From Escherichia coli (GTDB taxonomy: Bacteria > Pseudomonadota > Gammaproteobacteria > Enterobacterales > Enterobacteriaceae), in assembly GCF_041248615.1 (NCBI RefSeq), contig NZ_CP158426.1: a stretch of DNA of 64,000 bases; one strand, 5' to 3'. The notes beneath the pieces were generated by a model that saw nothing but the letters and a program-made list of their open reading frames with translations, was not told the DNA's origin and did not search any database. Made by a program: the position numbers and the translations under genes. Shown piece after piece: positions 10,481 through 50,084 of this stretch; within the stretch, counting starts at the first letter, position 1; each line of letters begins with the position of its first letter.

Positions 10481-10491
10481 AGGGAGACAAA

Positions 10492-10506: not shown

Positions 10507-10592
10507 AGATTTAACGGTACTTACTCCTCTTGCTGATTTCCTTATTTTTCAATAAGTAAACAAAAACAAGGGGAGCAAATTATCACAAATAA

Positions 10593-15947: not shown

Positions 15948-16174
15948 GTAACCACTATGCACACACAAAAAAACCGCTTGCCATGCCGCAATCAGTCAGG
16001 TTACATTTCCGCTGCACCTCATAAAACGGGTGCCGGGATTGCAACCCCCGCTGACAACTACAGCGCACAACCGCGCCAGCGGTTTTTTTGTGCGTACCGT
16101 ATCGCCACGTCTTTTTCGCGCCAGAATTATGGCGGGGCGTATGGGGCCGACTTCGGTCGGGCCGGTTTCTGTAG

Positions 16175-16242
16175 TTGCCGGTGGTTGCAACCCTGTACGT
16201 CTCGCCACCCAGAATTGCAACCTCTGGATGGTGAGTTTTCAA
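16175..16242. promoter_or_regulatory. three phased TTGCAAC(C) boxes; a fourth copy at 16029-16036
   Basis: TTGCAA palindromic cores at 16175, 16205, 16236 (30-31 bp apart), upstream of ORF 16268. Confidence 0.35.
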
Positions 16243-21636: not shown

Positions 21637-21829
21637 TGCGTATTTTCATGAAAGGAGATCACTCAATAACTTCCATCGAGATCGGGTAATAACATTTGAA
21701 CAGATCGCTGAATAACATCGATGGAGATCACTTTTGACTCATTTTGTTATTCAGTGATCTCCATCAATGTTATTGGAACTTCACAGGTGTGTTGATCTGT
21801 ATCTTTTGCCATTCCGGTAAAGGATACCT

Positions 21830-23371: not shown

Positions 23372-23382
23372 TACGGGATCCA

Positions 23383-24132
23383 ATGATGAATCATCTTTAC
23401 GAACAACTGACCGCACTTAAACTCACCGGCTTCCGTGATGCGCTTAAAAAGCAACTTGCTCAGCCGGGCACATACCAGGAGCTGGGCTTCGAAGAACGCC
23501 TGTCATTACTGACAGCAGAAGAACTAACCTGCCGTGAAAACAGGAAGGCAGAGCGTCTGATCAAACATGCACGGTTCAGACTTAATGCTGAGTTATCAAA
23601 GCTGGATTATCGTAACAATAGAGGGCTGGACAGGGCCCTCATCCGTTCACTCAGTCAGGGAAACTGGTTAACCCTGAAACAAAATATTTTACTGACCGGG
23701 GCCACCGGCAGCGGTAAAACGTTCCTGGCATGTGCACTTGGTCATAATGCCTGCCGACAGGGATACAAGGTCTACTATTATCGCCTTAAAGCGCTGATGG
23801 AACAGTGCTATCAGGGGCATGCTGATGGAAGATACAGCAAACTTTTGACCAGGCTGAATAATAGCGATCTGCTGCTTCTGGATGACTGGGGGCTGGAACC
23901 TCTCTCATCAGAACAGCGTAGCGACCTGCTGGAAATAGTGGATCTGATGTACCAACGAGGCTCAATCATCGTAGTGAGCCAGTTGCCGGTGGAAAACTGG
24001 TACAAAATGATCGGAGACTCCACACATGCGGATGCCATCCTAGATCGACTGGTTCATGGCAGTATCAAGATCGAACTTAAAGGAGAATCAATGCGGAAAA
24101 TACAATCTCCGTTGACCGAAGGAGATCAGTGA
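23383..24132 (+). CDS. istB: IS21-family ATP-binding helper IstB
   Basis: 249 aa; Walker A GATGSGKT. Confidence 0.9.
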   Translation: MMNHLYEQLTALKLTGFRDALKKQLAQPGTYQELGFEERLSLLTAEELTCRENRKAERLIKHARFRLNAELSKLDYRNNRGLDRALIRSLSQGNWLTLKQNILLTGATGSGKTFLACALGHNACRQGYKVYYYRLKALMEQCYQGHADGRYSKLLTRLNNSDLLLLDDWGLEPLSSEQRSDLLEIVDLMYQRGSIIVVSQLPVENWYKMIGDSTHADAILDRLVHGSIKIELKGESMRKIQSPLTEGDQ

Positions 24133-24223
24133 AGGTAATTTAAAAACGGTTCTGTGAAAGTGACACGAACCGATCTCCATCGATGTTACTCACCGATCTC
24201 CTTCACGGTAATACGCAATTGAT

Positions 24224-36112: not shown

Positions 36113-38347
36113 ATGAGCACGAGAAAATTCAGAACCCTTATCACCGACATCGGGCTGGCAAAGCTGGCCGCAACAACGGCGCCTGGCGGTAGACCTGTAC
36201 GCCTTACGCACATGGCTGTAGGGGACGGCAATGGAGAGCTTCGTCAGCCGCAGAAAAACCAGACATCGCTTTACAATGAGGTTTGGCGCCAGTCTGTCAA
36301 CCGCGTCTTCACCGACCCGGAGAACCCGAACCGCCTCATCGCCGAACTGGTCATTCCTCCTGAAACCGGCGGATTCTGGGTGCGTGAAATTGGTGTGTTT
36401 GATGATACAGGTACAATGATTGCAGTAGGAAATACCGCTGAAAGTTACAAGCCCACCAGAGAGGAAGGTTCAGGGCGGGCGCAGATATTCCGTGCAGTAA
36501 TCACCGTCACCTCCGACGCCGTGGTGGAACTGGTCATGGACACAACAACAATTCTGCCGACCACGGACTACATTGATGAGAAAATGGCGGAACACGCACG
36601 TTCCCGTAACCACCCTGACGCGACACTGACAGAAAAAGGATTCACCCAACTGAGCAGCGCCACAAACAGCACCTCTGAAACACTGGCCGCCACACCGAAG
36701 GCCGTCAAGGCTGCATATGACCTTGCAGCCGGTAAAGCACCCGCCAGCCACACCCACCCGTGGAATCAGATAACTGGTGTGCCATCAGCCTCGCTGACGG
36801 CAAAAGGCACCGTACAGCTGAGCAGTGCCACAAACAGTGAGTCAGAGACTGAGGCGGCCACCCCCAAAGCGGTTAAAGCCTTACACGATATGGTGACGAG
36901 CAAGTATACAGGACAGGATGCAACCACCGGACGCAAAGGCATCGTACAGCTGAGCAGCGCCACAAACAGCAATTCCGAAACACTGGCGGCCACACCGAAG
37001 GCAGTAAGTGATGCACTGAGCATGGCGTTCGTGAAGCCAACAACATCCCTGGGGGAAACAGACCTGAACACTCTGGGGCGTAAGGAAGACGCGGGAGATT
37101 ATTACCAGCAGAGTGACTCAGGTGCGAGAACAGACAGAAACTATCCTGTAGAGAAGGCAGGAGAGTTACGCATCCGTGTTGGTGCATGGGGATTCTGCCA
37201 GCATGAATACACGAGCTGGGATCCGCCACGAAAATTTATCAGGACAGTTACCGGAAACTTTAACGGTAACGGCCCATGGTCAGAGTGGGTGGAGGTGACA
37301 AACACAGATGCAACAACTGGACGCAAAGGCATCGTACAGCTGAGCAGCGATACAAACAGCAATTCCGAAACGCTGGCGGCCACACCAAGAGCCGTCAAGG
37401 CTGCATATGACCTTGCAGCCGGTAAAGCACCCGCCAGCCACACCCACCCGTGGAATCAGATAACAGGTGTGCCATCAGCCTCGCTGACGGCAAAAGGCAC
37501 CGTACAGCTGAGCAGTGCCACAAACAGTGAGTCAGAGACTGAGGCCGCCACCCCCAAAGCGGTTAAAGCCTTACACGATATGCTGACGAGCAAGTATACA
37601 GGACAGGATGCAACCACCGGACGCAAAGGCATCGTACAGCTAAGCAGCGCCACAAACAGCAATTCCGAAACGCTGGCGGCCACACCAAAAGCTGTTAAAG
37701 CTGCGTATGACCTTGCCAACAGCAAAGCCTCGGCAGCCCACACTCATCGCTGGGCTCAGATCACAGACGCCCCTGTTTTTTCGTCTGTTGCCCGCGTCAT
37801 CATGGGTAAACAAAGCATAAAAGATATTCTTGATTACTTTGGTTTAGGAGAAGGCTCGACGCTGCCAGTTGGCGTACCCGTTCCGTGGCCTTCGTCAAGA
37901 CCACCTGAGGGGTGGTTACAGTGCAACGGTGCCGCATTCACGCGTACAAAATACCCAAAACTGGCGGTGGCCTACCCTGACCTCAGGCTACCAGATTTGC
38001 GCGGGGAATTTATTCGTGGATGGGATGACCTGCGAATGATTGACAGGGGACGCTTATTGTTATCCACACAGGAAGCAACATATATTTGTACCGCCATACA
38101 GGCGTACCACGGCGTAGCGGGAGGTGCAGATATTCAGGCAGGGATTTCATTTGCATCACATGATAACGACATCATAAACATAACCCCTGATCAACCCAGA
38201 ACCGGTAACGGCATCCTGTACGGCACAAAACCAGTTGACAGATGGGCAATAGCCAGAGCCGGTAAGCTGGTGAGTAATGAAAAAGACAGATGGATAGCGA
38301 TCAGACCGCGCAATATCGCTTTTAATTATATTGTGAGGGCAGTTTAA
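36113..38347 (+). CDS. tail fibre protein (P2 gpH-like) with internal repeats
   Basis: 744 aa; repeated 35-aa units (GRKGIVQLSSATNSxSETLAATPKAVKA); divergent lower-GC C-terminal tip. Confidence 0.85.
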   Translation: MSTRKFRTLITDIGLAKLAATTAPGGRPVRLTHMAVGDGNGELRQPQKNQTSLYNEVWRQSVNRVFTDPENPNRLIAELVIPPETGGFWVREIGVFDDTGTMIAVGNTAESYKPTREEGSGRAQIFRAVITVTSDAVVELVMDTTTILPTTDYIDEKMAEHARSRNHPDATLTEKGFTQLSSATNSTSETLAATPKAVKAAYDLAAGKAPASHTHPWNQITGVPSASLTAKGTVQLSSATNSESETEAATPKAVKALHDMVTSKYTGQDATTGRKGIVQLSSATNSNSETLAATPKAVSDALSMAFVKPTTSLGETDLNTLGRKEDAGDYYQQSDSGARTDRNYPVEKAGELRIRVGAWGFCQHEYTSWDPPRKFIRTVTGNFNGNGPWSEWVEVTNTDATTGRKGIVQLSSDTNSNSETLAATPRAVKAAYDLAAGKAPASHTHPWNQITGVPSASLTAKGTVQLSSATNSESETEAATPKAVKALHDMLTSKYTGQDATTGRKGIVQLSSATNSNSETLAATPKAVKAAYDLANSKASAAHTHRWAQITDAPVFSSVARVIMGKQSIKDILDYFGLGEGSTLPVGVPVPWPSSRPPEGWLQCNGAAFTRTKYPKLAVAYPDLRLPDLRGEFIRGWDDLRMIDRGRLLLSTQEATYICTAIQAYHGVAGGADIQAGISFASHDNDIINITPDQPRTGNGILYGTKPVDRWAIARAGKLVSNEKDRWIAIRPRNIAFNYIVRAV
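36640..37700 (+). repeat. near-identical ~330-bp duplication inside the tail fibre gene
   Basis: segments around 36640-36990 and 37300-37690 almost identical at DNA level. Confidence 0.7.
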
Positions 38348-38958
38348 TGAGTAACACTGCAGTTCTGGATGAAAACGGTATCGCCACTTTCGCAGGCGAT
38401 ATCACTGTATATCACTATGATGAGGAAACCCGGGAATACACCTCATCCTCTGTGGAGTATCTCGCCCTGGGGGTGGGTACCCCGGCACATTCATGCGCCG
38501 ATGCCCCGCCAGAGGCAATGCCGGGTTACGTGATTTGCCGGACGTCCACGCTGGACGGGTGGGAGTATGTCCCCGATCATCGTGGAGAGACGGTATACAG
38601 CACAGAGAACGGTAATCCGGTCCAGATTACCCAACCAGGTGACTACCCGGAAGGGACAACGACAAAACAGCCTGCCACACCATGGGATACCTGGAACGGT
38701 GAGGCGTGGGTAACCGATACAGAACGGCAGCAAGCCGAAGAGCTGGAGGTTGCCAGACAGCAACGCAAGGAACGGGTGGATCAGGCGATGAAGTCCATCG
38801 ACCTCATCAACCTTAAGTTGCGGGCAGGTCGCAGTCTGACACCAGAAGAAACGGCAAAACTGAATGCCGTGCTGGATTATATCGACGAGCTGAACGCACT
38901 GGATATCAGCACGGAGCCTGAAATAAGCTGGCCGGAAACACCACCAGAAATGGAATGA
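38347..38958 (+). CDS. tail fibre assembly chaperone (P2 gpG-like)
   Basis: 203 aa; ATG overlaps gpH stop. Confidence 0.8.
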   Translation: MSNTAVLDENGIATFAGDITVYHYDEETREYTSSSVEYLALGVGTPAHSCADAPPEAMPGYVICRTSTLDGWEYVPDHRGETVYSTENGNPVQITQPGDYPEGTTTKQPATPWDTWNGEAWVTDTERQQAEELEVARQQRKERVDQAMKSIDLINLKLRAGRSLTPEETAKLNAVLDYIDELNALDISTEPEISWPETPPEME

Positions 38959-39028
38959 GCGGGGAAAAGGAACGGGCATTCATAAATAATTCATCATGCA
39001 GGTGCCGCAAGAATGCGGCACATTACCT

Positions 39029-39517
39029 TCACATCAGATCATTTACGCCGCTTACTGTGGTATTCCAGACCGAACTTAACTTCCCTTTCATTCCCGAAAG
39101 CATATCAGACACCGGCGACGAGGCCATACTCTCCCGCAAATCCTCATCACAGCGTTCCAGACTGACAGTGAACTCAATTTTTTTGGCCTTACCGTGGCGG
39201 TCAAGTTCGCTTCGCGTTGTGCGGACAGCCGTTATCACATACATGCCGTATATCTGCCCCACACCGTCAATCAGCGGCCATGGGCGACCAGTGTAAGCCT
39301 GCGTCGTTAAAAGGCTGAGGGAAACCTCACCGCCGGTAATTTCGGGATAAAGCACACCGGACAACGTGATCTGGTCGTCACCCGCCCCGATATACTGCCA
39401 GCTGGCCGAACGATTGATGCGTTCATTTTTAACGTGGCGCCAGGTTTTATTATGTTGCAGTTGTTGATGAGGCAGCGTACGCAACTCAAAAACAAACATG
39501 CCGTAAATCATCATCAT
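39029..39517 (-). CDS. tail protein (P2 gpU-like)
   Basis: 162 aa; last gene of the reverse-oriented tail block. Confidence 0.8.
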   Translation of the reverse strand: MMMIYGMFVFELRTLPHQQLQHNKTWRHVKNERINRSASWQYIGAGDDQITLSGVLYPEITGGEVSLSLLTTQAYTGRPWPLIDGVGQIYGMYVITAVRTTRSELDRHGKAKKIEFTVSLERCDEDLRESMASSPVSDMLSGMKGKLSSVWNTTVSGVNDLM

Positions 39518-39528
39518 GCGAGGTACTC

Positions 39529-42500
39529 CTAATCTCTGTCACGGAAACTACCGACTGTCTGGCGGATACGGCGTTCCATTTCCGCACGGACGGCATCACC
39601 CACCATTTTTGCCAGTTCGCGCGGGTTTTGCGTGTGAACATCATGCAGGTGAATATGCAGTTCGCCAGTTAATCCCCATGGTGCCGGCTCACTCTGGCGC
39701 GGTCGGGGCGATGCGGGGGATATGGGCTGGCGCACAGCCTCAACCACCGGACGGGATGTTGCCGCCATCACTGGTGTCATTAGCGGGGAGAACGTCGGCA
39801 TGACATCGTGAGTCATAACCGGTTTGATCACCGGCGGAACCACTGGCGTAATATTACCGGACAGTACCGGACGGACGACCGGAGGAATAACCGGCACATT
39901 ATTCACGGACACCACCGGCTTCACGACCGGCGACACGTTCGCCGTGGTGGATATCAGCGGCGAAACACTGACAGGCGGTGGCGCTGGCAGCGGTGGCAAC
40001 GAAGGCACACTGACCGACGGCACCTGCGGCAGTCTGACAGGTGGCTCACTGACACTACCCGGTAACAGGGAAGCTGCTCGGTTAAAGCGTTCCTCCTTCC
40101 ACTCACCACGAACGGCCAGCGCTTCCGGCAGGTTTTTAAAGATAATATCGCCGGGACCAGCGCGTTTTTTCGCCTGTTTCGCCTCATCCAGCAGACCACC
40201 GGTGTTATCGACGATTTTGTTCAGGCGGCGCATAGTGCCGGTATTCTCCCCCGTCAGGGGTGGTTGCCCCCCTTTGGGTTTTTCGCCGTCTTTTTTATCC
40301 TCGTCCTTTTTCGGCGGATTAATGACGTTAACATCCGCCAGAAGCATGGCAGCTTTCTCGTTCAGCAACTCCTTCTGTTTTAGTTCTTCCGCCTTTTTCC
40401 GGGCGCGCTCAACCGCCGACGGAATCAGCCCGAGTTTTTCCAGCACCCGGGTTAATGAGTCAATCAGCAGCGTAACCGGACCGGTCACCAGATTGCTGAT
40501 AAACTCCCCTACCTTCTGCCCGAACGTACGCCCGGCTTCCGTGCACTTGTCCAGCTCATCCTTTGTTGTGCTTACCGGCGCGAACAAATCCACGAACCAC
40601 TGCCACACACGCCCGATTGTCTGCCCGACATACTCAAACAGCGGTCCCAGTGGTGCCACAGCCTCGCGCAGTGGCGTAAGCCCCTGCCACAGGCCGGACA
40701 AGAACCCGCCCACGACAGCCTTCAGCTGGTCCCAGTGCCGCCAGATAAGCACTGCCGCACCGACCAGTGTCGCCACCACAAGGCCCACCGGACTTAACAG
40801 AAAACCCAGCGCCCCGCCAAGTGCGCCCACCGCACCACTCACCATCCCCCACAGTGCGGGCAGACCTGACAGTCTGAGCGCCAGTATTCCGATACCGCGC
40901 CCCAGTGAAATCAGTGCGCCGCCAGGTGAAGTGAACGCAGCCAGCAGACCACCACGCAGCGCGCCAAGTCCCGCCTGCACACCACGAAGCCGCCCCGCAA
41001 CTACGCCCAGCAGTGCAGCAAACCGTCCGGCACCGGAGGTGATACCGACAAACAGCACGCGCCAGCCACCGATACCGCCCAGCGGACCACCGAGTACGCC
41101 GCGCAGCTGCGTCAGTAACGGCAGCGCACGACCGAGGCCGGATGTGCCGGTCAGCAGGGCAAACCCAAGACGCAGTTTTGCCAGCGGCCCCATCAACACA
41201 CCAGTGGCAAGTGACAGCGCCCCCATGGCCGCAACCGCAGCCAGCAGTACACCACCGGCAATCAGCAGTTGTTTTGTCAGTTCAGGGTGCGCCTGAGCCA
41301 GCGCGGTGACTTTCGCAATAACCCGGGTGAACGACTGCGTGACAGAACGCAGCGGCCCGTCAACGAGGTCAGCGACACGGATACGCAGTCCTTCCCATGC
41401 GCTGTTCAGTGATTTCAGGTCACCGTCCAGGTTATCAGCCATAACACGGGCAGTGTGATTAAGTTCCCCGGTGGCCAGTTCAATCTCCTGCGTAAGACGG
41501 GGAAGATTATTTTCCCCCGCCGCAGTGACAAGATTCATCAGGGAAACATAGGACTCCTGCCCGGCAATAGCCCTGAAAAAGGAGACCTGCGCGGCATTAC
41601 CGTATTTTCGGGTGGCCTGGTACAGCTCATTCAGGATATTTTCCATCCGGCGCATGTTCCCGTAAGCATCCTGCGTCTCCACGCCAAGCTCTTTCAGTGC
41701 CATTGCAGCGGCCTTCGGCGGATCAACCAGACGTGACAGACTGGCACGCAGCGCCGTACCTGCATCACTTCCACGGATCCCCACACTGCCAAGGACACCC
41801 GTCATGGCTGCCGCCTGTTCAAGGGACAGGCCAAGTGAAGCTGCAACCGGACCCGTGTACTTCATGGTTTCACCCAGTGAACGGAGATCCGTATTGGTTC
41901 GTGTGAAGGTGGCGGCCAGCGTGTCACCCACGCGATCCATCTGGTCAGCGGACAGACCAAACTGTGTGAGGATATTCGAACTGATATCGGCAGTCTGTCC
42001 CAGGTCCATCCCTGCAGCCATTGCCAGATCAAGCACGCCGGGTAGCGCCGCCTGTATGGCCTGTGGTGTGAAGCCGGCCATGGCAAGGAACGCCTGACCG
42101 CTGGCAGCATCACCGGCGGTAAACTGCGTTTCAGAGCCCAGCTTAATGGCCTGTTCGCGCAGCGCCTTAAACTGCGGACTGTTTTTGTCAATACGGGTCA
42201 GCGCCTGGACGCGTGACATCTCCTTACCAAAACTGACCGCCGGTTGCAGGAAACGTCCGGCCGCATAGCCGCCTGCCGCCGCCGTACCAACCGCCGTAAG
42301 TCCGACCGTTTTAAGTTTTCCCGCCGTCTCCTGAGCACGGGAATATTGCTGGCGTGCCTGCGTGACACGTGCCAGCGCCTGCCGTTCGCGTTCCAGCTGG
42401 TCGTTGTATTGCTGTGTTCGCCGTATGGCCTGTTGAATGGTGTTGTCACTGCCGGAAAGCGCAATACCGTGGCGCCGCAGCTCACCACCCAGTTCGCGCA

Positions 42501-42840
42501 TTCGCTGAACTTCACGCGCACGGACCTCATTGAGACGCTCAAGTTTGAGGCTCAAATCGTTCATCAGCTTTTTCTGTTTGTCAGACAGCACGGTTCCGGC
42601 GCGCTGAATTTGCTGAAGTGCGCTTAACTGGCGTTGCGCCCTGACAATGCCGTTTCCGGCCTTGTTTGCAGCCTCGCGGGCGCGATCAAATGAACGGGCG
42701 TAGCGTTCCAGGTTTTTGATCGCACCCTGCGTTCTCTGTATGGAGTCGCCAAGCTGGCCCATCATGCGACGGGCGTTTTCGGTGGGACGGGTCAGCCTGT
42801 CAACAGCGCTGAAGGCGACCCGTATATCAAGCGTTTTCAT
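39529..42840 (-). CDS. tail tape measure protein (P2 gpT-like)
   Basis: 1103 aa from ATG 42838-42840; coiled-coil/Ala-Gly-rich core; Pro/Val-rich C-terminus. Confidence 0.85.
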   Translation of the reverse strand: MKTLDIRVAFSAVDRLTRPTENARRMMGQLGDSIQRTQGAIKNLERYARSFDRAREAANKAGNGIVRAQRQLSALQQIQRAGTVLSDKQKKLMNDLSLKLERLNEVRAREVQRMRELGGELRRHGIALSGSDNTIQQAIRRTQQYNDQLERERQALARVTQARQQYSRAQETAGKLKTVGLTAVGTAAAGGYAAGRFLQPAVSFGKEMSRVQALTRIDKNSPQFKALREQAIKLGSETQFTAGDAASGQAFLAMAGFTPQAIQAALPGVLDLAMAAGMDLGQTADISSNILTQFGLSADQMDRVGDTLAATFTRTNTDLRSLGETMKYTGPVAASLGLSLEQAAAMTGVLGSVGIRGSDAGTALRASLSRLVDPPKAAAMALKELGVETQDAYGNMRRMENILNELYQATRKYGNAAQVSFFRAIAGQESYVSLMNLVTAAGENNLPRLTQEIELATGELNHTARVMADNLDGDLKSLNSAWEGLRIRVADLVDGPLRSVTQSFTRVIAKVTALAQAHPELTKQLLIAGGVLLAAVAAMGALSLATGVLMGPLAKLRLGFALLTGTSGLGRALPLLTQLRGVLGGPLGGIGGWRVLFVGITSGAGRFAALLGVVAGRLRGVQAGLGALRGGLLAAFTSPGGALISLGRGIGILALRLSGLPALWGMVSGAVGALGGALGFLLSPVGLVVATLVGAAVLIWRHWDQLKAVVGGFLSGLWQGLTPLREAVAPLGPLFEYVGQTIGRVWQWFVDLFAPVSTTKDELDKCTEAGRTFGQKVGEFISNLVTGPVTLLIDSLTRVLEKLGLIPSAVERARKKAEELKQKELLNEKAAMLLADVNVINPPKKDEDKKDGEKPKGGQPPLTGENTGTMRRLNKIVDNTGGLLDEAKQAKKRAGPGDIIFKNLPEALAVRGEWKEERFNRAASLLPGSVSEPPVRLPQVPSVSVPSLPPLPAPPPVSVSPLISTTANVSPVVKPVVSVNNVPVIPPVVRPVLSGNITPVVPPVIKPVMTHDVMPTFSPLMTPVMAATSRPVVEAVRQPISPASPRPRQSEPAPWGLTGELHIHLHDVHTQNPRELAKMVGDAVRAEMERRIRQTVGSFRDRD

Positions 42841-43045
42841 GCTCTGCGTTCCCGCTGCGAAGGGCCGCCCGCTCACGCCAGGCGACCACCTCGCCGGGAT
42901 CCATCAGGAAGATTTCAGCGGGAGACCAGTTGAAAATAACGGCGATATCCGCCACAAAGTCTTCAATGTGCTCAAAGGGCACGACGGTTATCAGCCTGCC
43001 GTCGCCGCCCCGCTCTTCCCGCCAGAGTCCTGACCGGCCAAAAAA
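42827..43045 (-). CDS. gpE' extension reached by programmed -1 frameshift
   Basis: slippery TTTTTTG (plus-strand 43039-43045); -1 frame open until a stop overlapping the gpT start. Confidence 0.5.
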   Translation of the reverse strand, partial: FFGRSGLWREERGGDGRLITVVPFEHIEDFVADIAVIFNWSPAEIFLMDPGEVVAWRERAALRSGNAEHENA

Positions 43046-43353
43046 TTAACCGCCACCCCGCACAGCTGAATAAAATCAGCGGACCCCATGCGCTTAAGCA
43101 GAACCTCGTCCAGTCGCGGCGAAGTGACGCGCGGGAGTAACTCAAACATCGCGTCCGTTTTCATGTTCAGCACGTCAAGCAGTGACAGCCCGCGCAGTGA
43201 ACCGGCCTGCTGTACAGCAGGCGTGATTTCCACATACGTGATTTTTTTGTTACCGAGCACAAGGGGCGTTTTCAGCGTCACGCCGCGCTCACTGGTCACG
43301 TCCGCCGCATCAGCACCGTCAGTAACAGGGGCAACAACCGGATTTTCTTTCAT
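42991..43353 (-). CDS. tail assembly chaperone (P2 gpE-like)
   Basis: 120 aa; slippery heptamer TTTTTTG near 3' end. Confidence 0.75.
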   Translation of the reverse strand: MKENPVVAPVTDGADAADVTSERGVTLKTPLVLGNKKITYVEITPAVQQAGSLRGLSLLDVLNMKTDAMFELLPRVTSPRLDEVLLKRMGSADFIQLCGVAVNFLAGQDSGGKSGAATAG

Positions 43354-43403
43354 GCATAAAACCTCAAATCAGGGGGCGACGCCGCGCGCCGCCGTGGGAA
43401 ACA

Positions 43404-43922
43404 TTAACCACCAAGACCAATCGCCGAGCGCACGCGGTCCGGGAAGACGTTTTTGCCGTCCTTGCGTTCGATGTGGTTCAGTAAATCAATCTCCAGCACC
43501 GGACGGTCGTTAATGCTGAGTTTGTAGTAGGTACTCCTGACCGCATAGGTGTGAGACGTGACCTCACCCTGTTTTGCCTCCCCCGTATCAATTTCCGTCA
43601 CGCGGCCGCGAAGCTCAATTTCATACAGGTCGCTCTGCTCTTCATCGTTGTAGTACTCACCGACAAAGCGCAGCAGCGTACCGTCGATCGTGCCGCCGTA
43701 CTTAAGGAACAGTTCGCGGGTCGGCCCGCCCATGGTGAAACTCGCATCCAGCGCGCCGTCATCCAGACCAAGGTCGATATTCACCGCGCCGGCCATACCA
43801 CCACCGCGATAGGCTTCCGTTTTACGGGTCAGTTTGGGGGGCGTGAAGCCGGTCACCCTGCCAATCTGGTTCACCCCGTCAGTAAACAGCGTGAACACCC
43901 TGAGATTTTTTGGTACGGCCAT
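43404..43922 (-). CDS. tail tube protein (P2 gpFII-like)
   Basis: 172 aa; conserved KLTRK and EIDTGE regions. Confidence 0.85.
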   Translation of the reverse strand: MAVPKNLRVFTLFTDGVNQIGRVTGFTPPKLTRKTEAYRGGGMAGAVNIDLGLDDGALDASFTMGGPTRELFLKYGGTIDGTLLRFVGEYYNDEEQSDLYEIELRGRVTEIDTGEAKQGEVTSHTYAVRSTYYKLSINDRPVLEIDLLNHIERKDGKNVFPDRVRSAIGLGG

Positions 43923-45205
43923 TAAGCACCTCCAAGCGTCGCAAATGCAGGACCAAAGAATTCATCAGTAAACGCCTGGTAAAGTTCCATATCCTCAAGC
44001 GGCGGAACGGGCGTGTACTTGTAGCGGATACGCACGCGTCCCTGACGAAGTTCCGTGGTGCTGTTATCCACCACGTCATACCAGCACTCCGCACCAATGA
44101 GACGTCCTGACGTAACCAGCGCATCCAGTTTTGCGCGAATTGCGCTTAACACGTCTTTCACATTAGCAGGGGTCAGCGGGGCATCAATCGTTTCAAACTG
44201 CGCTTCCGCAATGGAATCAGCCAGCACCTGAGCGGTTCGCGTGTACACCTCAAAGATATACGCCTTCGTTTCCGGCGTACGGTTGCCCCAGAAGCGGAAA
44301 CCGTTACGGCAAATGATGGTAGTGATTTCCTTGTTGTTGAGATTGTTGGCATCGCTGTCTTCGGACTGAAGGGACCAGAACACCGGGCTGGAAATACCCA
44401 GCACATTTCTTACCGGCACGTTGGACAGCGATTTATGCCAGCCCTGTTCGTGGTCAATACGTGCACGTAAACCGCAGGCGTACGCCGCAGCCGGGAAGAC
44501 CTCATTAGCGCCGGATTTCGGGTTATGGGCGATGAAGTCCGGCCAGACCAGCATAAGTTCGCGCTCGTTAAATCTGGCGCGGTAGCTGATTGCATCGGCG
44601 GGCTTCTTGCAGTTGTGACAGCCCGCGTAGACAAATGCGCGAAGTTTTTCTGCAATTACACACAGGGATTTTGTGACAGCTTCAGTATCCAGTCCGGGAG
44701 CTGCGATGATGCGCGGACGGTAACCGATGGCATCATCCTGTTCAGCTATCAGAAGTGCATACATACCGGTATAATTACCGTCGCCATCCGTGCCACCAAT
44801 GACATACTGGTCCTGCGTTTTGTGTGGGTATACAGGATGTGCATCTTCAGACTCATCAATACCAAAAAATGCCCTGTCTTCAGGATCCAGATGACCGAAT
44901 GATGTAACTCCTGTATCCGGGGCGCCCTGAGAACTGGCATCAGGAACGCGCACCACAATCACCTTCGTGCTCACCTGGTCGGCGACAGCCTTAAGCGATT
45001 TGTAAAGCGTCCCCTTTGTGCCGGCCTTACCCAGCACATCACTGACGCGGGTCAGCAGTGTGGGTTTGTTCAGCGGGAACAGAGTTTCATCCGCGTCATC
45101 TGCCGTAGCCACAATACCAATAACACTGGAATCCACATCATTAATGGCGGTGGCAAGGCCGGTACTTTCCCTTACGCGCGCACCATGAAAGCGTGTTTCA
45201 CTCAT
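43922..45205 (-). CDS. tail sheath protein (P2 gpFI-like)
   Basis: 427 aa from ATG 45203-45205 (MSETRFHGARV); track ORF start at 45352 is an unsupported extension. Confidence 0.85.
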   Translation of the reverse strand: MSETRFHGARVRESTGLATAINDVDSSVIGIVATADDADETLFPLNKPTLLTRVSDVLGKAGTKGTLYKSLKAVADQVSTKVIVVRVPDASSQGAPDTGVTSFGHLDPEDRAFFGIDESEDAHPVYPHKTQDQYVIGGTDGDGNYTGMYALLIAEQDDAIGYRPRIIAAPGLDTEAVTKSLCVIAEKLRAFVYAGCHNCKKPADAISYRARFNERELMLVWPDFIAHNPKSGANEVFPAAAYACGLRARIDHEQGWHKSLSNVPVRNVLGISSPVFWSLQSEDSDANNLNNKEITTIICRNGFRFWGNRTPETKAYIFEVYTRTAQVLADSIAEAQFETIDAPLTPANVKDVLSAIRAKLDALVTSGRLIGAECWYDVVDNSTTELRQGRVRIRYKYTPVPPLEDMELYQAFTDEFFGPAFATLGGA

Positions 45206-45278
45206 ATGTTTCACCCTTGTCTGGCTGGTTGATTTTGCGTAATCATTACCCACACACGCGGTAATCTCACCCCTTTGA

Positions 45279-45302
45279 TGTTGTCTCCTGACAGCGACAA
45301 CA
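45279..45302. promoter_or_regulatory. Ogr-type late-promoter dyad between divergent gpFI and gpD
   Basis: TGTTGTCTCCTGACAGCGACAACA; centre about 85 and 76 bp from the two start codons. Confidence 0.5.
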
Positions 45303-45366
45303 AAACAGCCATTCAACGCCGCTGCGGTGCATGAAACCATTACAGAACGCACCAGGAGAGAACACC

Positions 45367-46458
45367 ATGAAAGAGCTGTCAGTTACCGTTCCGTCACCGG
45401 ATATCGACATCACCATCAACAACAACACACTGGCAAACCTCACAGAGCGACTCATGACGCTGACCCTGACGGATAACCGGGCCTTTGAGGCAGACCGCGT
45501 CACCCTCACCCTTGACGATACGGACGGGCAGTTACAGTTGCCACCACGTGGCGCACGCCTGAGAGTGATGATTGGCTGGCGAGGAGAATCACTGGTTAAC
45601 AAGGGCACCTACGTCGTTGATGAGGTTGCGTGGGAAGGACCTCCAGATAAACTGATCATCACCGCCAGCAGCGCAGATTTTCGGGAAGAGTTCAACGTGA
45701 GGCGGGAGGTATCCTGGCACGACGTGACCGTAAAACAGGTTGTGTCAGCCATCGCTCACCGCTACGGCCTGAAGACACAGATAAGCGAAATCCTCATGGA
45801 TATCGAAATTGACCACGCTGACCAGACCGAAGAGAGCGATATATCCTTCCTGACCCGCATGGCTGAAATGCTGGGTGCGATTGCCACCGTAAAAAACGGC
45901 AGCCTGTTATTCATTCTGCCGGGTGGCGGAACCGGGCCGGACGGAAGAGCCCTGCCTTCGTTCGCCATTACCCGCAGCAGCGGCGACAGTCACCGCTTTC
46001 GCATTGCTGACCGTGATGCGTATACGGGGGTCCGGGCGCACTGGCTCGATCTGAAGTTCGGGCACAAGAAAAAAGTGAACGTGAAGCGACGCAGGGAAGC
46101 CGGGAAACAGAAACAGGAGAAGAGCAGCAGCCGGGAGGGTGATTACATGGAAGGCGCGGAAGGGAACGTCTACGTTCTGCGCAGGACTTACCAGAATGAA
46201 GAAACCGCACGACGTGCAGCTGCGGCAAAGTGGCAGGAGTTACAGCGGGGAGCAGCGGCATTCTCCATCACTCTGGCACGGGGTCGTGCCGACCTGTATC
46301 CCGAAATGCACGGCAGGGTAACAGGTTTTAAAAGCGAGGTGGACAATCAGGACTGGATTATTGCCAGGGTGGAGCACATCATAGATGAAAGCGGCTTCAC
46401 CACACAACTGGAGCTGGAAGCGAAAATCCCCGAATGGATAGCAGATTCAGGCGGATAA
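45367..46458 (+). CDS. tail protein D (P2 gpD-like)
   Basis: 363 aa from ATG 45367 with SD AGGAGAG; N-terminus MKELSVTVPSPD. Confidence 0.8.
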   Translation: MKELSVTVPSPDIDITINNNTLANLTERLMTLTLTDNRAFEADRVTLTLDDTDGQLQLPPRGARLRVMIGWRGESLVNKGTYVVDEVAWEGPPDKLIITASSADFREEFNVRREVSWHDVTVKQVVSAIAHRYGLKTQISEILMDIEIDHADQTEESDISFLTRMAEMLGAIATVKNGSLLFILPGGGTGPDGRALPSFAITRSSGDSHRFRIADRDAYTGVRAHWLDLKFGHKKKVNVKRRREAGKQKQEKSSSREGDYMEGAEGNVYVLRRTYQNEETARRAAAAKWQELQRGAAAFSITLARGRADLYPEMHGRVTGFKSEVDNQDWIIARVEHIIDESGFTTQLELEAKIPEWIADSGG

Positions 46459-46501
46459 AATTAAAATGAGCCATCTCCACTCAGCCAGATAAGGAGAAGC
46501 C

Positions 46502-46753
46502 ATGTTCCGTTGTCCCCTATGCGGTGCATCCGCACGTATCCGCACCAGTCGCAATGAAAATGATTCAGGCACAGTTCGCCTGAAGTACTACCAGTGCAAT
46601 AACCTCGAATGCGGGATCGGCTTTACCACACTGGAGGGTTTTAACAAATTCACATCAAAACGCGCCCCGTCGCCGCAGGGTACAGAGCGGATACCGTGGG
46701 AAGATTTTCCGGGATCTCACAGGGGGAATACTCAGATTAATCTTGATATTTAA
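46502..46753 (+). CDS. ogr: Ogr/Delta-family zinc-finger late activator
   Basis: 83 aa; MFRCPLCG...YYQCNNLEC four-Cys finger; SD AAGGAG. Confidence 0.85.
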   Translation: MFRCPLCGASARIRTSRNENDSGTVRLKYYQCNNLECGIGFTTLEGFNKFTSKRAPSPQGTERIPWEDFPGSHRGNTQINLDI

Positions 46754-46759
46754 GAACAA

Positions 46760-46897
46760 TAATCAGGTTGAGAGGACATCATAAGGCAAGTAGATTAACG
46801 GCAGATACTTTCCCGCAACCACGGGCAAGTATTTAATTATCCATGATGAAATATGACCTAAATTGTTTTTTGCCCGCCGGAAAGCGGGCATTTTTTT
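46760..46897 (+). repeat. repeat unit 1 (partial) ending in bidirectional intrinsic terminator
   Basis: shares GTTGAG...AGTAGATTA...CCATGAT...TTTTGCCCGCCGGAAAGCGGGCATTTTTTT with four downstream units. Confidence 0.55.
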
Positions 46898-47111
46898 ATT
46901 CTTTTGTGGTTATGGGGTCATCAGGAACCACGTGCAGATTATATTTTTGTTTTTTTGGCGTTCCTCCGGCAGCAACGAGTTCATCAATAAGACACTGACA
47001 CGCCTGAACATCCCGGGCATGTCTTAGTTTCACCTTTATTGATTTAACCTTATCCTCACCGGAGGAGAAATGCAGTTCAATCTCAATATCGTTTCTTCGG
47101 AACAATCTCAT
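46896..47111 (-). CDS. small protein of unknown function
   Basis: 71 aa (MRLFRRNDIEIELHF...); two decayed copies downstream; palindrome upstream. Confidence 0.5.
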   Translation of the reverse strand: MRLFRRNDIEIELHFSSGEDKVKSIKVKLRHARDVQACQCLIDELVAAGGTPKKQKYNLHVVPDDPITTKE

Positions 47112-47206
47112 ACGCCCCCTGAATATATCAGAAATACTAGTATCGAAAAATGAGAAAACAGTTAGACAGGAGAAACATATTAACACAAATCATTTATACC
47201 TATAGA

Positions 47207-47222
47207 TGAAATTATAATTTCA
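47207..47222. promoter_or_regulatory. perfect 16-bp palindrome TGAAATTATAATTTCA upstream of the small gene
   Basis: palindromic; related inverted repeats upstream of the two decayed copies. Confidence 0.35.
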
Positions 47223-47331
47223 TTCATGAATATGATAGATAACTATATTGTGAACAAAATGAAAAATGGCTAAATTAAAAATGGGCATGGAGGAATGCCC
47301 GGTTATCAATATAATGTGACGTAGATCATTG

Positions 47332-47562
47332 TTTTGCCCGCCGGAGAGCGGGCATTTTTTTTGCGCCTGCCATCGAGGCGCCTTCCCTGGCGCACACAAA
47401 GCAGCCCTGATTTTCCATGAAAACTTCAGGGTTGAGCTGCGGGCACAAAGTGAGTAGATTAGCTACGGGTACCTCCCCCTGACAACAGGAAGGGTGTCCA
47501 TTATCCATGATATACAAACGAAAAGTCTTGTTTTTTGCCCGCCGAAGCGCGGGCATTTTTTT
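47332..47562 (+). repeat. repeat unit 2, terminator-to-terminator (candidate structured sRNA)
   Basis: bounded by GCCCGCCGGAGAGCGGGC and GCCCGCCGAAGCGCGGGC hairpins with T-runs; internal conserved hairpin CCCTGATTTTCCATGAAAACTTCAGGG. Confidence 0.5.
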
Positions 47563-47688
47563 ATGCATCAGACAAGATACAGCCCACCCCAACTGACACC
47601 TGAAATATTGCCGCAACAAAAAGAAACAGTTAAATTACGCGCGGGTGCCTTTCGGCTGATGGCCGGAGGGAAAACCTGAAGGCCGGAT

Positions 47689-47922
47689 GTGGAAAGGCCC
47701 CGGAAAACATTTCTGTTTAACCGAGGCCCTAACCGCATTACCTTGACAAGTGAAAGGTTAGCGCCTCTCCGGAAAAGGAGCAAGTGCTATGTCGCAAAAA
47801 TCGCTTACGGCCATCACGTTCTGCGTGACGGCAATCCTCATCATCTGGATATTGCACGGTTCGCTGTGCGAAATACGGATGAGCTTCTGGGGAGCGGAGT
47901 TTGCGGCGTTCTTACAATGTAA
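47689..47922 (+). CDS. mok-like overlapping reading frame of hok locus 1
   Basis: 77-codon frame starting upstream of and overlapping hok, as in hok/mok/sok loci. Confidence 0.35.
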   Translation: MERPRKTFLFNRGPNRITLTSERLAPLRKRSKCYVAKIAYGHHVLRDGNPHHLDIARFAVRNTDELLGSGVCGVLTM

Positions 47923-47929
47923 GAAGTAA
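47789..47929 (+). CDS. hok: Hok/Gef-family type I toxin
   Basis: 46 aa MSQKSLTAITFCVTAILIIWILHGSLCEIRMSFWGAEFAAFLQCKK; SD AAGGAG; single TM plus conserved LCE and AAF motifs. Confidence 0.7.
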   Translation: MSQKSLTAITFCVTAILIIWILHGSLCEIRMSFWGAEFAAFLQCKK

Positions 47930-48015
47930 GGAAACCGCGACGGGGGAGCAATCCCCCGTCAATCGGTTGCCAGGGTAAGGTCGATAAGGCACCCTATCTC
48001 ACAGACATGAACAAC

Positions 48016-48050
48016 AAACCCGCAGCATAAAAACTGCGGGTTTTCTTTTT
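48016..48050 (+). terminator. intrinsic terminator of hok locus 1
   Basis: stem CCCGCAG/CTGCGGG followed by TTTTCTTTTT. Confidence 0.5.
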
Positions 48051-48181
48051 GGTGTCCTCACCGACTTGAAACAGTGATCAGACTATAAGACAAAGCCCGC
48101 AATGTTGCGGGCTTACTCTACCTCTCGAAAATGTGGTCACTGCGTGGACATACGCTGATACAAATCCTTTATATCAATAAA

Positions 48182-48280
48182 TTAAATCTTTGTTTTTTTC
48201 ATCAACAATGATTTAACCTTATCCTCACCGGAGGAGAAATGCAGTTCAATCTCAATATCGTTTCTGTGGAACAGCCTCAT
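48182..48280 (-). pseudogene. truncated copy of the 71-aa small gene
   Basis: first 24 codons near-identical to 46896-47111 copy, then diverges to early stop. Confidence 0.45.
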
Positions 48281-48501
48281 AAGACAACCTCCTGAATTCA
48301 TCAGAAACACAGTCAACTGAAAACCAGAAAGCAGACAAACAGTGGACACACATTAATACAAATCATTTATACCTATAGATGAAATTGCAGTTTCATCTAT
48401 AACATGACAGGTAACAATATTGTGAAAAAACTCAAAACTCGTTAGATTAAAGACGGACAGAGCAATGCTACTTTATCAATAACATGTAACCTGTACTTCC
48501 T

Positions 48502-48732
48502 TATTTTGCCCGCCGAAGCACGGGCATTTTTTTTGCGCCTGCCATCGAGGCGCCTTCCCTGGCGCACACAAAGCAGCCCTGATTTTCCATGAAAACTTCA
48601 GGGTTGAGCCAAAAGCACAAAGACAGTAGATTAACCACGGGTGCCTTCCACCTGACAACAGGAAGGGTGTCCAGTATCAATGACAGACAACTCACATTGC
48701 TGTTTTGCCCGCCGGAAAGCGGGCATTTTTTT
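48502..48732 (+). repeat. repeat unit 4, terminator-to-terminator
   Basis: same architecture and sequence family as unit 2. Confidence 0.5.
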
Positions 48733-48734
48733 AT

Positions 48735-48936
48735 TCTTTTGTGGTTATTGGGTCATCAGGAACAACATGCAGATTATGCTTTGATTTTTTTGGTGTTATT
48801 ACAGCAGCAACGAGTTTATTAATAAGACACTGACATGCCTGAACATCCCTGACATATCATAATTTCACTTTATTTTTTTAGCTTGTCCTTTCTGGAGCAG
48901 AAATATCTCAACATCGTTTCTGTGGAACAACCTCAT
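48735..48936 (-). pseudogene. degenerate copy of the 71-aa small gene
   Basis: nucleotide homology to 46896-47111 across its length but reading frame disrupted. Confidence 0.35.
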
Positions 48937-49151
48937 TTGCCCCTGAATGTATCATAAATATCAGCATCGGAAAACCAACAGCAATACAGAAGAAACATGT
49001 TAATGCAAATCACTTATACCTATAGATGAAATTACAGTTTTGTTCATAAATATGATAAGTAACTATATTGTGAATAAAATGAAAACTAGCTAAATTAAAC
49101 GTGGGCATGGTGGAATGCCTCGTAATCAATAATACATGATCCGTACTTCCT

Positions 49152-49380
49152 TGTTTTGCCCGCCGGAAAGCGGGCATTTTTTTGGCGGTTACCATCGCCT
49201 CACCTTCCTGGTTCACATGAAGCAACCCTGATTTTCCATGAAAACTTCAGGGTTGAGACAAAAGCACAAAGACAGTAGATTAACCACGGGTACCTTCCAC
49301 CTGACAACAGGAAGGCTGTCCAGTATCAATGACAGACAACTCACATTGCTGTTTTGCCCGCCGGAAAGCGGGCTTTTTTT
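49152..49380 (+). repeat. repeat unit 6, terminator-to-terminator
   Basis: same family; 5' hairpin region diverged, 3' region conserved. Confidence 0.5.
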
Positions 49381-49582
49381 GGCAGTTATCATAGCCGCAC
49401 CTTCCTGGCACATATGAAGCAACCCTGATTTTCCATGAAAACTTCAGGGTTGAGACAAAAGCACAAAAACAGTAGATTAACCACGGGTGCCTGCCACCTG
49501 ACAACAGGAAGGGGTGTCCATTATCCATGATATACAAACGAAAAGTCTTGTCTTTTGCCCGCCAAAGCGCGGGCATTTTTTT
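49351..49582 (+). repeat. repeat unit 7, terminator-to-terminator (shares a terminator with unit 6)
   Basis: same family; directly upstream of hok locus 2. Confidence 0.5.
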
Positions 49583-49793
49583 ATGCATCAGACAAGATAC
49601 AGCCCACCCCAACTGACACCTGAAATATTGCCGCAACAAAAAGAAACGGATGCCTTTCGGCTGATGGCCGGAGGGAAAACCTGAAGGCCGGATGTGGAAA
49701 GGCCCCGGAAAACATCTGTGTTTAACCGAGGCCTGACCCTTCCTACCGTGACAAGTGGAAGGTTAGCGCCTCTTTGTAAAAGGAGCAAGCGCT

Positions 49794-49934
49794 ATACCGC
49801 AAAAAACGATTATTGTTGGCATTTTATGCCTGACAATAACCCTGGTCATCTGGATGGTCCACGATTCGTTATGTGAATTCAGCTTTGATATCTGGGGAGC
49901 GCGTTTTGCGGCGTTCTTGCAGTGTAAACCGTAA
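49794..49934 (+). pseudogene. hok-like toxin gene copy 2 with ATA in place of ATG
   Basis: encodes IPQKTIIVGILCLTITLVIWMVHDSLCEFSFDIWGARFAAFLQCKP; no canonical in-frame start; mok-like frame 49694-49876 overlaps. Confidence 0.45.
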
Positions 49935-50084
49935 GAAACCGCAGCGGGGGAGAAATTCCCCGCTATCCGGTTGTTGGGGTGGGCCGATATGGCGCCCTTT
50001 CCCTGTAGAGACAAAACAAAAAACCAGATTTGCCCGCCATTGAGAGGGCTTTTTTGTCACCCTCACCAGTGAGGGCATCATCAT

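What the first reader, a model, noticed from the sequence alone, without database searches (positions are those of the whole stretch)
42827..43353. Programmed -1 frameshift site for gpE/gpE' with E' stop overlapping the tape-measure start
TTTTTTG lies near the 3' end of gpE, and the -1 frame is open from there to a stop that overlaps the gpT ATG. This is the conserved tail-chaperone frameshift arrangement and gives an internal consistency check for the reverse-strand block.
Basis: partly seen in the sequence, partly recalled or inferred. Interest (0 to 1): 0.25.

Follow-up and report, generated by a model that had tools for sequence, protein, structure and literature searches.

The report
P2-type tail chaperone frameshift site
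This is the usual programmed -1 ribosomal frameshift that P2-like phages use to make two versions of a tail-assembly chaperone, here in a P88-like prophage of E. coli; it is real and conserved, but already well known.

Summary
On the minus strand, a gpE-like ORF (43353..42991, 120 aa) contains T_TTT_TTG at 43045..43039 in the correct X_XXY_YYZ phase. The -1 frame opens exactly at that heptamer and runs 73 codons to TGA at 42829..42827. The predicted fusion is 175 aa. Its -1-frame part matches Pfam Phage_P2_GpE (4e-12). The whole fusion aligns with P2 E+E' (BLASTP 2e-27), and the Phe-Leu junction falls in the same alignment column.

All 17 phage relatives examined and all 75 distinct IMG/VR relatives carry an in-phase slippery heptamer there. 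Substitutions in the 55-nt overlap fall mainly on third positions of the -1 frame.

One detail is loose. The E' stop lies 11 nt past the tape-measure ATG (42840), so the ORFs overlap by 14 nt; the stop and the ATG do not overlap.

No downstream RNA structure exceeds chance. RefSeq annotates E as "hypothetical" and E' as a separate 51-aa GTG ORF, so the finding corrects the annotation.

Verdict: a new member of a known kind, of low interest. Two minor points: this lineage keeps only the second of two tandem heptamers seen in P88, and it has an SD-like GGGGTGG 7 nt upstream.

The parts
42991..43353 (-). gpE-like tail assembly chaperone ORF (zero frame), 120 aa, ending in the double stop TGA TAA (42993..42988)
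   Evidence: ORF list and translation. PHROG 103 'tail protein', 4.7e-31. BLASTP against P2 gpE: 2e-14, 35% identity. No Pfam PF10109 match. RefSeq calls it 'hypothetical protein' WP_000662443.1.
43039..43045 (-). Slippery heptamer T_TTT_TTG (E-frame codons AAT TTT TTG = Asn-Phe-Leu)
   Evidence: Phase checked. The same heptamer is in phase at the homologous position in P2, 186 and 11 other phage loci and in 45 of 75 distinct IMG/VR relatives.
42827..43039 (-). E' segment: -1 frame read after the slip (G 43039 re-read), 70 codons plus TGA at 42829..42827
   Evidence: Pfam PF06528 Phage_P2_GpE, 4e-12. PHROG 1756, 1e-32. Substitutions against P88, Chuche and 4B11 concentrate on -1-frame third positions.
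42827..43353 (-). Predicted gpE+E' fusion product, 175 aa (junction ...AVNFL|GRSGLW...)
   Evidence: Built. BLASTP against P2 E+E': 2e-27 across the junction. Family alignment A1. AlphaFold2 mean pLDDT 85.9, at least 90 across the junction.
42980..42982 (-). GTG that RefSeq uses as the start of a stand-alone 51-aa 'GpE family' ORF; probably not a real start
   Evidence: Annotation. Weak anti-SD pairing upstream (-5.7 kcal/mol, 20 nt away). The codon is GCG or CTG in Kp4861-1 and phiT5282H, while -1-frame conservation continues upstream to the heptamer.
39529..42840 (-). Tape measure gene gpT, 1103 aa, in the same frame as E. ATG at 42840..42838, 14-nt overlap with E'.
   Evidence: Pfam PF10145, 6e-53. 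The N-terminus MKTLDIRVAFSAVDRLTRP is identical to that of P88 T, and the V-D-x-x-T-R-P motif is shared with P2 and 186.
43053..43059 (-). SD-like GGGGTGG, 7 nt 5' of the heptamer (possible 5' stimulator; function not shown)
   Evidence: Predicted pairing to the 16S 3' end is -9.5 kcal/mol. Only ~1.5% of 9-mers in the tail block reach -8 or lower. Similar elements occur in about one third of distinct contexts but not in the P88 group.
43404..43922 (-). Tail tube gene FII, immediately upstream of E (context)
   Evidence: Pfam PF04985, 1.8e-44.

Best explanation
The region encodes the P2-type tail assembly chaperone pair of a P88-like (Xuanwuvirus, Peduoviridae) prophage.

Most ribosomes translate gpE (120 aa) and stop at TGA TAA (42993..42988). 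A minority slip back one base on T_TTT_TTG (43045..43039). In that slip, tRNA-Phe in the P site moves from UUU to UUU, and tRNA-Leu in the A site moves from UUG to UUU. These ribosomes continue in the -1 frame to TGA at 42829..42827 and make the 175-aa gpE+E'.

By analogy with P2 E/E+E' and lambda G/GT, the shared N-terminal domain would coat the tape measure protein gpT, whose gene starts 14 nt before the E' stop. The E' domain would recruit tail tube subunits. The frameshift efficiency would fix the ratio of the two products.

Shown here: the sequence anatomy, the homology, the conservation of the signal and the coding constraint in the -1 frame. Inferred: that the shift happens in this prophage, how efficient it is, and the chaperone roles.
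For: - Anatomy: the heptamer is in X_XXY_YYZ phase, and the -1 frame opens exactly at it and stays open for 73 codons.
- Homology: the E' part matches Pfam PF06528 (4e-12) and PHROG 1756 (1e-32); the E part matches PHROG 103 (4.7e-31). The fusion against P2 E+E' gives 2e-27, with the FL junction aligned.
- tblastn of the fusion hits 396 phage records. In 58 of the 60 rows listed, the match is split into two pieces, as a frame change would produce.
- Gene order is tube, E/E', tape measure, U.
- Every one of 17 phage loci and 75 distinct IMG/VR relatives has an in-phase heptamer at the homologous site: TTTTTTG 45/75, AAATTTT only 15, CCCTTTC 13, TTTTTTA 2.
- The codon before the Phe codon always ends in T, although it encodes six different amino acids (Asn, Gly, Ser, Pro, Thr, Asp) (contexts).
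- In the 55-nt E/E' overlap, 7 of 11 substitutions against P88 fall on -1-frame third positions (which are second positions of the E frame). Downstream the count is 15 of 25.
- P2 is reported to shift at TTTTTTG, giving 91-aa and 142-aa products (PMC3091744). The P2 locus reconstructed the same way gives those lengths.
- Phage 186 and Burkholderia phage FLC5 records annotate the same frameshift.
Against: - There is no direct evidence of expression or of the fusion protein for this prophage.
- No 3' stimulatory RNA structure was found (z = -0.27 and 0.02). The literature reports none for P2 either (PMC3091744).
- Pfam PF10109 (Phage_TAC_7) and NCBIfam do not recognise the E part.
- A GTG at 42982 could in principle start E' independently, as RefSeq annotates.
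- This prophage copy carries an IS21-family insertion at 21.6-24.2 kb. It may therefore be defective and the genes seldom expressed.
Confidence: 0.93

Rival explanations
1. E' is a separate small gene whose translation starts at GTG 42982, as RefSeq/PGAP and the P88 record annotate it. No frameshift occurs.
For: An in-frame GTG exists 9 nt after the E stop. It is annotated as the start of the 51-aa 'GpE family phage tail protein' WP_001115715.1, and likewise in P88, Chuche and P88_4B11.
Against: - Anti-SD pairing upstream is weak and badly spaced (-5.7 kcal/mol, 20 nt upstream).
- The codon is not a start codon in Kp4861-1 (GCG) or phiT5282H (CTG) (contexts).
- The 19 -1-frame residues upstream of the GTG (GRSGLWREERGGDGRLITV) are conserved in relatives. 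They show third-position substitutions in the -1 frame and are modelled with pLDDT of at least 90.
- The PHROG 1756 profile match starts at fusion residue 98, before the GTG.
Confidence: 0.04
2. The longer product arises by transcriptional slippage: RNA polymerase adds one U in the T6 run. The ribosome does not shift.
For: A one-base insertion in the run would put E' in frame and give the same protein. Slippage on homopolymer runs is known in other phage and IS genes (own knowledge; reviewed in PMC5009743).
Against: - Six T is short for efficient polymerase slippage (own knowledge).
- Relatives keep the X_XXY_YYZ pattern without a long homopolymer run: A_AAT_TTT in 15 and C_CCT_TTC in 13 of 75. 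That fits tandem tRNA re-pairing, not polymerase stuttering.
- The phase of the heptamer relative to the E frame is invariant. Polymerase slippage would not need that.
Confidence: 0.02
3. The arrangement is a chance open frame or a decayed, frameshift-mutated pseudogene with no function.
For: The prophage carries an IS21-family insertion. PGAP flags the neighbouring T gene as incomplete in two other genomes.
Against: - The same two-frame layout occurs in all 92 relatives examined, including inducible phages such as P88 and P2.
- There is a strong Pfam match in the -1 frame.
- T is an intact 1103-aa ORF in this window.
Confidence: 0.01

Closest known systems
Phage P2 gpE / gpE+E' (Christie et al. 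2002, J Bacteriol 184:6522, as cited in PMC3091744 and PMC5009743)
   Same: Same position between FII and T. Same T_TTT_TTG heptamer at the aligned Phe-Leu codons. E' has a PF06528 domain and its ORF runs into the start of T. No detectable 3' structure.
   Different: Only 36% identity. E is 120 aa against 91, with a 19-residue N-terminal extension. The linker after the slip is 10 residues longer (LWREERGGDG). The E'/T overlap is 14 nt against 8. The E part falls below Pfam PF10109. The whole FI-U block is inverted relative to H/G and D/ogr.
Escherichia phage P88 and other Xuanwuvirus (Peduoviridae)
   Same: Closest sequenced phages: about 74% nucleotide identity, 73% fusion identity, the same inverted tail block and the same 14-nt E'/T overlap.
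   Different: P88 has two overlapping heptamers (A_AAT_TTT_TTG) and P88_4B11 only the first (A_AAT_TTT). The window has only the second (T_AAT_TTT_TTG), with a -1-frame TAA abutting it. The window also has an SD-like GGGGTGG that P88 lacks. None of these records annotates the frameshift.
Phage lambda gpG / gpGT tail assembly chaperones (Levin 1993; Xu, Hendrix, Duda 2004, 2013, 2014; summarised in PMC5009743)
   Same: Two overlapping ORFs between the major tail gene and the tape measure gene, joined by a low-level -1 shift. The ratio of the products matters for assembly, and neither product is in the virion (PMC5009743).
   Different: Siphovirus, with a different heptamer (G_GGA_AAG, own knowledge). 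Sequence similarity to lambda G was not tested here.
E. coli dnaX -1 frameshift cassette (A_AAA_AAG with a 5' SD-like element and a 3' hairpin; PMC3711429)
   Same: Tandem-slippage heptamer. The window also has a 5' SD-like element.
   Different: The spacer is 7 nt, not 10. No 3' hairpin exceeds chance. The outcome is an extended fusion rather than early termination.

Membership tests
P2-type gpE / gpE+E' frameshifted tail chaperone pair | Located between the tail tube gene (FII) and the tape measure gene (T) of a contractile-tail phage | tested here: met
   FII PF04985 at 43404-43922. T PF10145 at 39529-42840. U PF06995 at 39029-39517. All on the minus strand.
P2-type gpE / gpE+E' frameshifted tail chaperone pair | The upstream ORF is homologous to P2 gpE | tested here: met
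   BLASTP against P2 gpE: 2e-14. PHROG 103: 4.7e-31. Caveat: Pfam PF10109 is not matched even at E <= 10, although 13 of 17 aligned family members match it.
P2-type gpE / gpE+E' frameshifted tail chaperone pair | The -1 frame extension carries the E' domain (Pfam PF06528 Phage_P2_GpE) | tested here: met
   E = 4e-12, 45.8 bits against a cut-off of 23, fusion residues 134-169. 17 of 17 family members match.
P2-type gpE / gpE+E' frameshifted tail chaperone pair | In-phase slippery heptamer (T_TTT_TTG in P2) near the 3' end of E at the homologous position | tested here: met
   43045..43039 in X_XXY_YYZ phase. The FL junction is aligned with that of P2. Present in all relatives.
P2-type gpE / gpE+E' frameshifted tail chaperone pair | E' lacks its own translation start | tested here: inconclusive
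   A GTG exists at 42982 and is used by RefSeq. It has weak SD pairing, is not conserved outside the clade, and coding conservation extends upstream of it.
P2-type gpE / gpE+E' frameshifted tail chaperone pair | The E' reading frame ends overlapping the start of T | tested here: met
   14-nt overlap (ATG 42840, TGA 42829..42827). The overlap in relatives ranges from -40 to +14 nt.
P2-type gpE / gpE+E' frameshifted tail chaperone pair | The fusion protein is made at a low percentage, and both products are required for tail assembly | not testable with these tools
   Needs a reporter assay, proteomics and complementation.
dnaX-type stimulated -1 frameshift cassette | 5' SD-like element about 10 nt upstream of the heptamer | tested here: inconclusive
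   GGGGTGG has a 7-nt spacer and -9.5 kcal/mol. Across the family such elements are variable in presence and in spacing (4-16 nt).
dnaX-type stimulated -1 frameshift cassette | 3' stimulatory hairpin or pseudoknot 5-9 nt downstream | tested here: not met
   Folding of 45 and 90 nt downstream gives z = 0.02 and -0.27 against dinucleotide shuffles. Relatives give -0.94 to +0.54; P2 gives -2.04, but from helices more than 30 nt downstream.

The most novel reading that the evidence does not exclude
The ratio of E to E+E' may be tuned lineage by lineage through interchangeable signal parts. P88 has two overlapping heptamers (A_AAT_TTT_TTG). This prophage lost the first: AAA became TAA, which also places a -1-frame stop against the site. 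In the same few codons it gained an SD-like GGGGTGG 7 nt upstream, which may act as a dnaX-like 5' stimulator to compensate. SD-like elements upstream of the slip site in about a third of gpE contexts (including P2 and 186) would then be an unrecognised, variable stimulator of tail-chaperone frameshifting.
Probability: 0.15. Interest if true: 0.35.

Novelty: new member of a known kind. Interest (0 to 1): 0.12.

Why it matters
Biologically it matters little. The site confirms that the tail module of this prophage is intact and organised like that of P2 and P88.

Practically, it shows that RefSeq/PGAP and several phage records mis-annotate this locus, calling E a "hypothetical protein" and E' a free-standing 51-aa GTG ORF, instead of E plus a 175-aa frameshift product. 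The same correction applies to the roughly 29 E. coli genomes that carry this prophage and to the Xuanwuvirus reference records.

The natural series of one, the other or both heptamers in close relatives offers a small ready-made test of how signal strength sets chaperone stoichiometry.

Tried and rejected
- Downstream stimulatory RNA structure: folding 45 and 90 nt after the heptamer in the window and five relatives gave nothing above shuffles in the window.
- Independent E' start at GTG 42982: rejected as the main route.
- Transcriptional slippage: considered unlikely, because relatives keep heptamers without homopolymer runs.
- Pfam PF10109 and NCBIfam recognition of E: no match.
- PDB sequence search: nothing relevant; the best hit was a lactate dehydrogenase at E = 0.34.
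- Foldseek of the AlphaFold model against PDB: no match at E <= 0.001. Against BFVD: only two unnamed 83-89-aa viral proteins at 3e-4, and weak hits to proteins named tail assembly chaperone. The fold therefore adds little.
- The primary P2 paper (PMC135442) is not held in the library. P2 facts are taken from PMC3091744 and PMC5009743, and otherwise from my own knowledge.
- The P88 paper (PMC5285337) does not mention the frameshift.
- Alternative T start at GTG 42876: it has a strong SD-like GAGGTGG, but upstream starts are absent in P2, 186, YenM, phi52237 and the Ralstonia phage, and the conserved N-terminus begins at the ATG. ATG 42840 is kept.

Full report
**Context.** The window is E. coli chromosome. 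Megablast of 42700-43500 finds 100% matches in several complete genomes, and 29 of 5,426 genomes cover at least 80% of the query at 95% identity or more. It carries a P2-like prophage whose closest sequenced phages are P88 and other Xuanwuvirus (Peduoviridae), at about 74% nucleotide identity over this region.

On the minus strand lie the sheath gene (45205..43922), tube gene FII (43922..43404, PF04985), a 120-aa ORF (43353..42991), the tape measure gene T (42840..39529, PF10145) and gpU (39517..39029, PF06995).

**Checking the observation.** On the minus strand the 120-aa ORF reads ...GTT AAT TTT TTG GCC..., so TTTTTTG (43045..43039) is in the X_XXY_YYZ phase. It lies 15 codons before the double stop TGA TAA.

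The -1 frame has a TAA directly 5' of the heptamer and is then open for 73 codons to TGA at 42829..42827. A -1 slip at the heptamer predicts a 175-aa product with the junction ...AVNFL|GRSGLW.... The stated coordinates (42827-43353) run exactly from the E start to the E' stop.

TTTTTTG occurs 26 times on both strands of the window. An in-phase copy in the last third of E would therefore be expected by chance less than about 1% of the time.

One detail is inexact. The E' stop is 11 nt downstream of the T ATG (42840), so the ORFs overlap by 14 nt; the stop codon and the ATG do not overlap. P88, Chuche, P88_4B11 and phiT5282H have the same 14-nt overlap. P2 and 186 have 8 nt, and two betaproteobacterial phages have the 4-nt ATGA form.

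**What it is.** The -1-frame part matches Pfam PF06528 (Phage_P2_GpE, 4e-12) and PHROG 1756 (1e-32). The zero-frame part matches PHROG 103 (4.7e-31). The fusion aligns with P2 E+E' at 2e-27 (36% identity) straight through the junction, and E alone aligns with P2 gpE at 2e-14.

Pfam PF10109 (Phage_TAC_7) and NCBIfam do not recognise the E part, although 13 of 17 aligned family members match PF10109. This explains why RefSeq calls E "hypothetical".

tblastn of the fusion hits 396 phage records. In 58 of the 60 rows listed, the match is split into two pieces, which is the signature of a frame change.

**Conservation of the signal.** I reconstructed E, the -1 ORF and the in-phase heptamers in 17 phage loci and in 80 IMG/VR loci, which gave 75 distinct sequences. 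Every one has a canonical heptamer at the aligned Phe-Leu position.
- T_TTT_TTG: 45 of 75, and also in P2, 186, P88, FLC5, phi52237 and others.
- A_AAT_TTT alone: 15.
- C_CCT_TTC: 13.
- T_TTT_TTA: 2.

The codon preceding Phe always ends in T, although it encodes six different amino acids (contexts). My P2 reconstruction gives 91 and 142 aa, the lengths reported for E and E+E' (PMC3091744). The phage 186 and FLC5 records annotate the frameshift explicitly.

**Coding constraint.** Against P88, Chuche and P88_4B11, substitutions upstream of the heptamer fall mainly on third positions of the E frame (for example 29/27/54 at positions 1/2/3). In the 55-nt overlap they fall on third positions of the -1 frame: 7 of 11, which are second positions of the E frame. 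After the E stop they again follow the -1 frame (15 of 25). Selection therefore tracks the -1 frame from the heptamer onward, not only from the GTG that RefSeq uses as the E' start.

That GTG (42982) has poor anti-SD pairing and is GCG or CTG in Kp4861-1 and phiT5282H. The 19 residues between the heptamer and the GTG are conserved, and the AlphaFold2 model places them in a confident beta-hairpin (mean pLDDT 85.9, at least 90 across the junction).

**Mechanism.** The best explanation is tandem -1 slippage of tRNA-Phe (P site, UUU to UUU) and tRNA-Leu (A site, UUG to UUU). This yields a minor fraction of gpE+E' alongside gpE.

By analogy with lambda G/GT (ratio about 30:1; G binds the tape measure and the T domain recruits the tube protein; PMC5009743) and with P2, the shared domain would coat gpT and the E' domain would recruit FII. 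These roles and the efficiency are inferred, not shown.

No 3' structure exceeds chance (z = -0.27 and 0.02), in line with what is reported for P2 and the BCC phages (PMC3091744).

Transcriptional slippage is unlikely to be the main route. Relatives keep the heptamer logic and the phase without any long homopolymer run.

**Lineage-specific details.** Within the Xuanwuvirus-like clade the site exists in three states:
- A_AAT_TTT_TTG, two overlapping heptamers (P88 type).
- A_AAT_TTT_ATG, the first heptamer only (P88_4B11 type).
- T_AAT_TTT_TTG, the second heptamer only (the window and IMG/VR locus L020).

The window also has an SD-like GGGGTGG 7 nt upstream (-9.5 kcal/mol; only ~1.5% of 9-mers in the tail block reach -8 or lower). 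P88 lacks it.

Comparable SD-like elements sit upstream of the site in about a third of distinct contexts, including P2 (AAGGTGG) and 186 (TAAGGTGAT). In 14 of 45 contexts this element falls in the strongest 5% of equally sized sliding ranges in the rest of the gene; in most of those 14 no other range matched it. Spacing varies from 4 to 16 nt and the sequences are not independent. I found no paper linking SD-like stimulators to tail-chaperone frameshifts. This remains a lead only.

**The T start.** ATG 42840 is supported by an N-terminus identical to that of P88 T and by the conserved A-V-D-x-x-T-R-P motif shared with P2 and 186. An upstream GTG (42876) with a strong SD-like GAGGTGG exists. 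It is clade-specific, and many relatives have no upstream start.

**Structure searches.** The model has no significant match in the PDB. In BFVD it has only two unnamed small viral proteins at 3e-4, plus weak hits to proteins named tail assembly chaperone. No solved homologue was found by sequence.

**Verdict.** This is a new, un-annotated member of the well-known P2 E/E+E' frameshift family. It is of low intrinsic interest, useful mainly as an annotation correction and as a sign that the tail module is intact.

Noticed in passing
window 21638-24217: An IS21-family insertion sequence (istA-like 513-aa ORF at 21830-23371, istB-like 249-aa ORF at 23383-24132) sits inside the prophage. It is absent from the otherwise 99.98%-identical prophage in E. 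coli TUM1886 (NZ_CP128970.1), where the site lies in a hypothetical gene. This copy may be defective. The IS21 assignment is from ORF size and order and my reading of the sequences, not from a family search.
   Followed up: partly
window 36113-46753: The FI-FII-E-E'-T-U block (45205..39029) is on the opposite strand to the flanking tail fibre genes H/G (36113-38958, +) and to D/ogr (45367-46753, +). This is inverted relative to the P2 order. Phage P88 has the same layout, so it is a Xuanwuvirus trait, not a rearrangement of this copy.
   Followed up: partly
window 39529-42840 (-): The tape measure ORF is intact here (1103 aa), with a long Pro/Val-rich C-terminal third. PGAP flags the same gene as 'incomplete, missing C-terminus' in two genomes. 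P88 T is 935 aa, 55% identical. The pseudogene flags look like annotation artefacts of an unusually long, divergent C-terminus.
   Followed up: partly
window 43039-43048 (-); L002 4699-4708; L007 1494-1500: Close relatives show three states of the slip site: tandem A_AAT_TTT_TTG, A_AAT_TTT only, and (in the window) T_TTT_TTG only, with a -1-frame TAA abutting it. This is a natural series for testing heptamer redundancy.
   Followed up: yes
window 43053-43059 (-): SD-like GGGGTGG lies 7 nt 5' of the heptamer. SD-like elements recur upstream of the slip site in P2, 186, FLC5, Ralstonia, Vibrio and other relatives, but not in the P88 group. This may be a variable 5' stimulator.
   Followed up: partly
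window 43375-43393 (-): An 8-bp GC-rich hairpin lies in the FII-E intergenic spacer, at the position where phage 186 annotates the partial terminator tI. P88 has a 9-bp equivalent. No U-run follows it here, and it is not above shuffles in this GC-rich stretch.
   Followed up: partly
window 46862-49998: Several 0.5-0.7 kb direct repeats (80-87% identical) lie just beyond ogr, in an AT-rich stretch that holds a Hok/Gef family gene (47789-47929). Twelve of the window's 26 TTTTTTG matches fall between 46866 and 50056. These may be repeated hok/sok-like modules.
   Followed up: no
window 10387-10521, 16014-16089, 16125-16212: Rfam matches above gathering score: STnc130 sRNA between dmsA and the prophage integrase, and isrK plus a C4 antisense RNA side by side in the prophage early region.
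   Followed up: no
window 42874-42876 (-): A GTG 36 nt upstream of the T ATG, in the T frame, is preceded by a strong SD-like GAGGTGG (-10.4 kcal/mol), whereas the ATG has a weak one (-4.3). It is conserved only in the Xuanwuvirus/phiT5282H clade. An N-terminally extended T cannot be excluded.
   Followed up: partly
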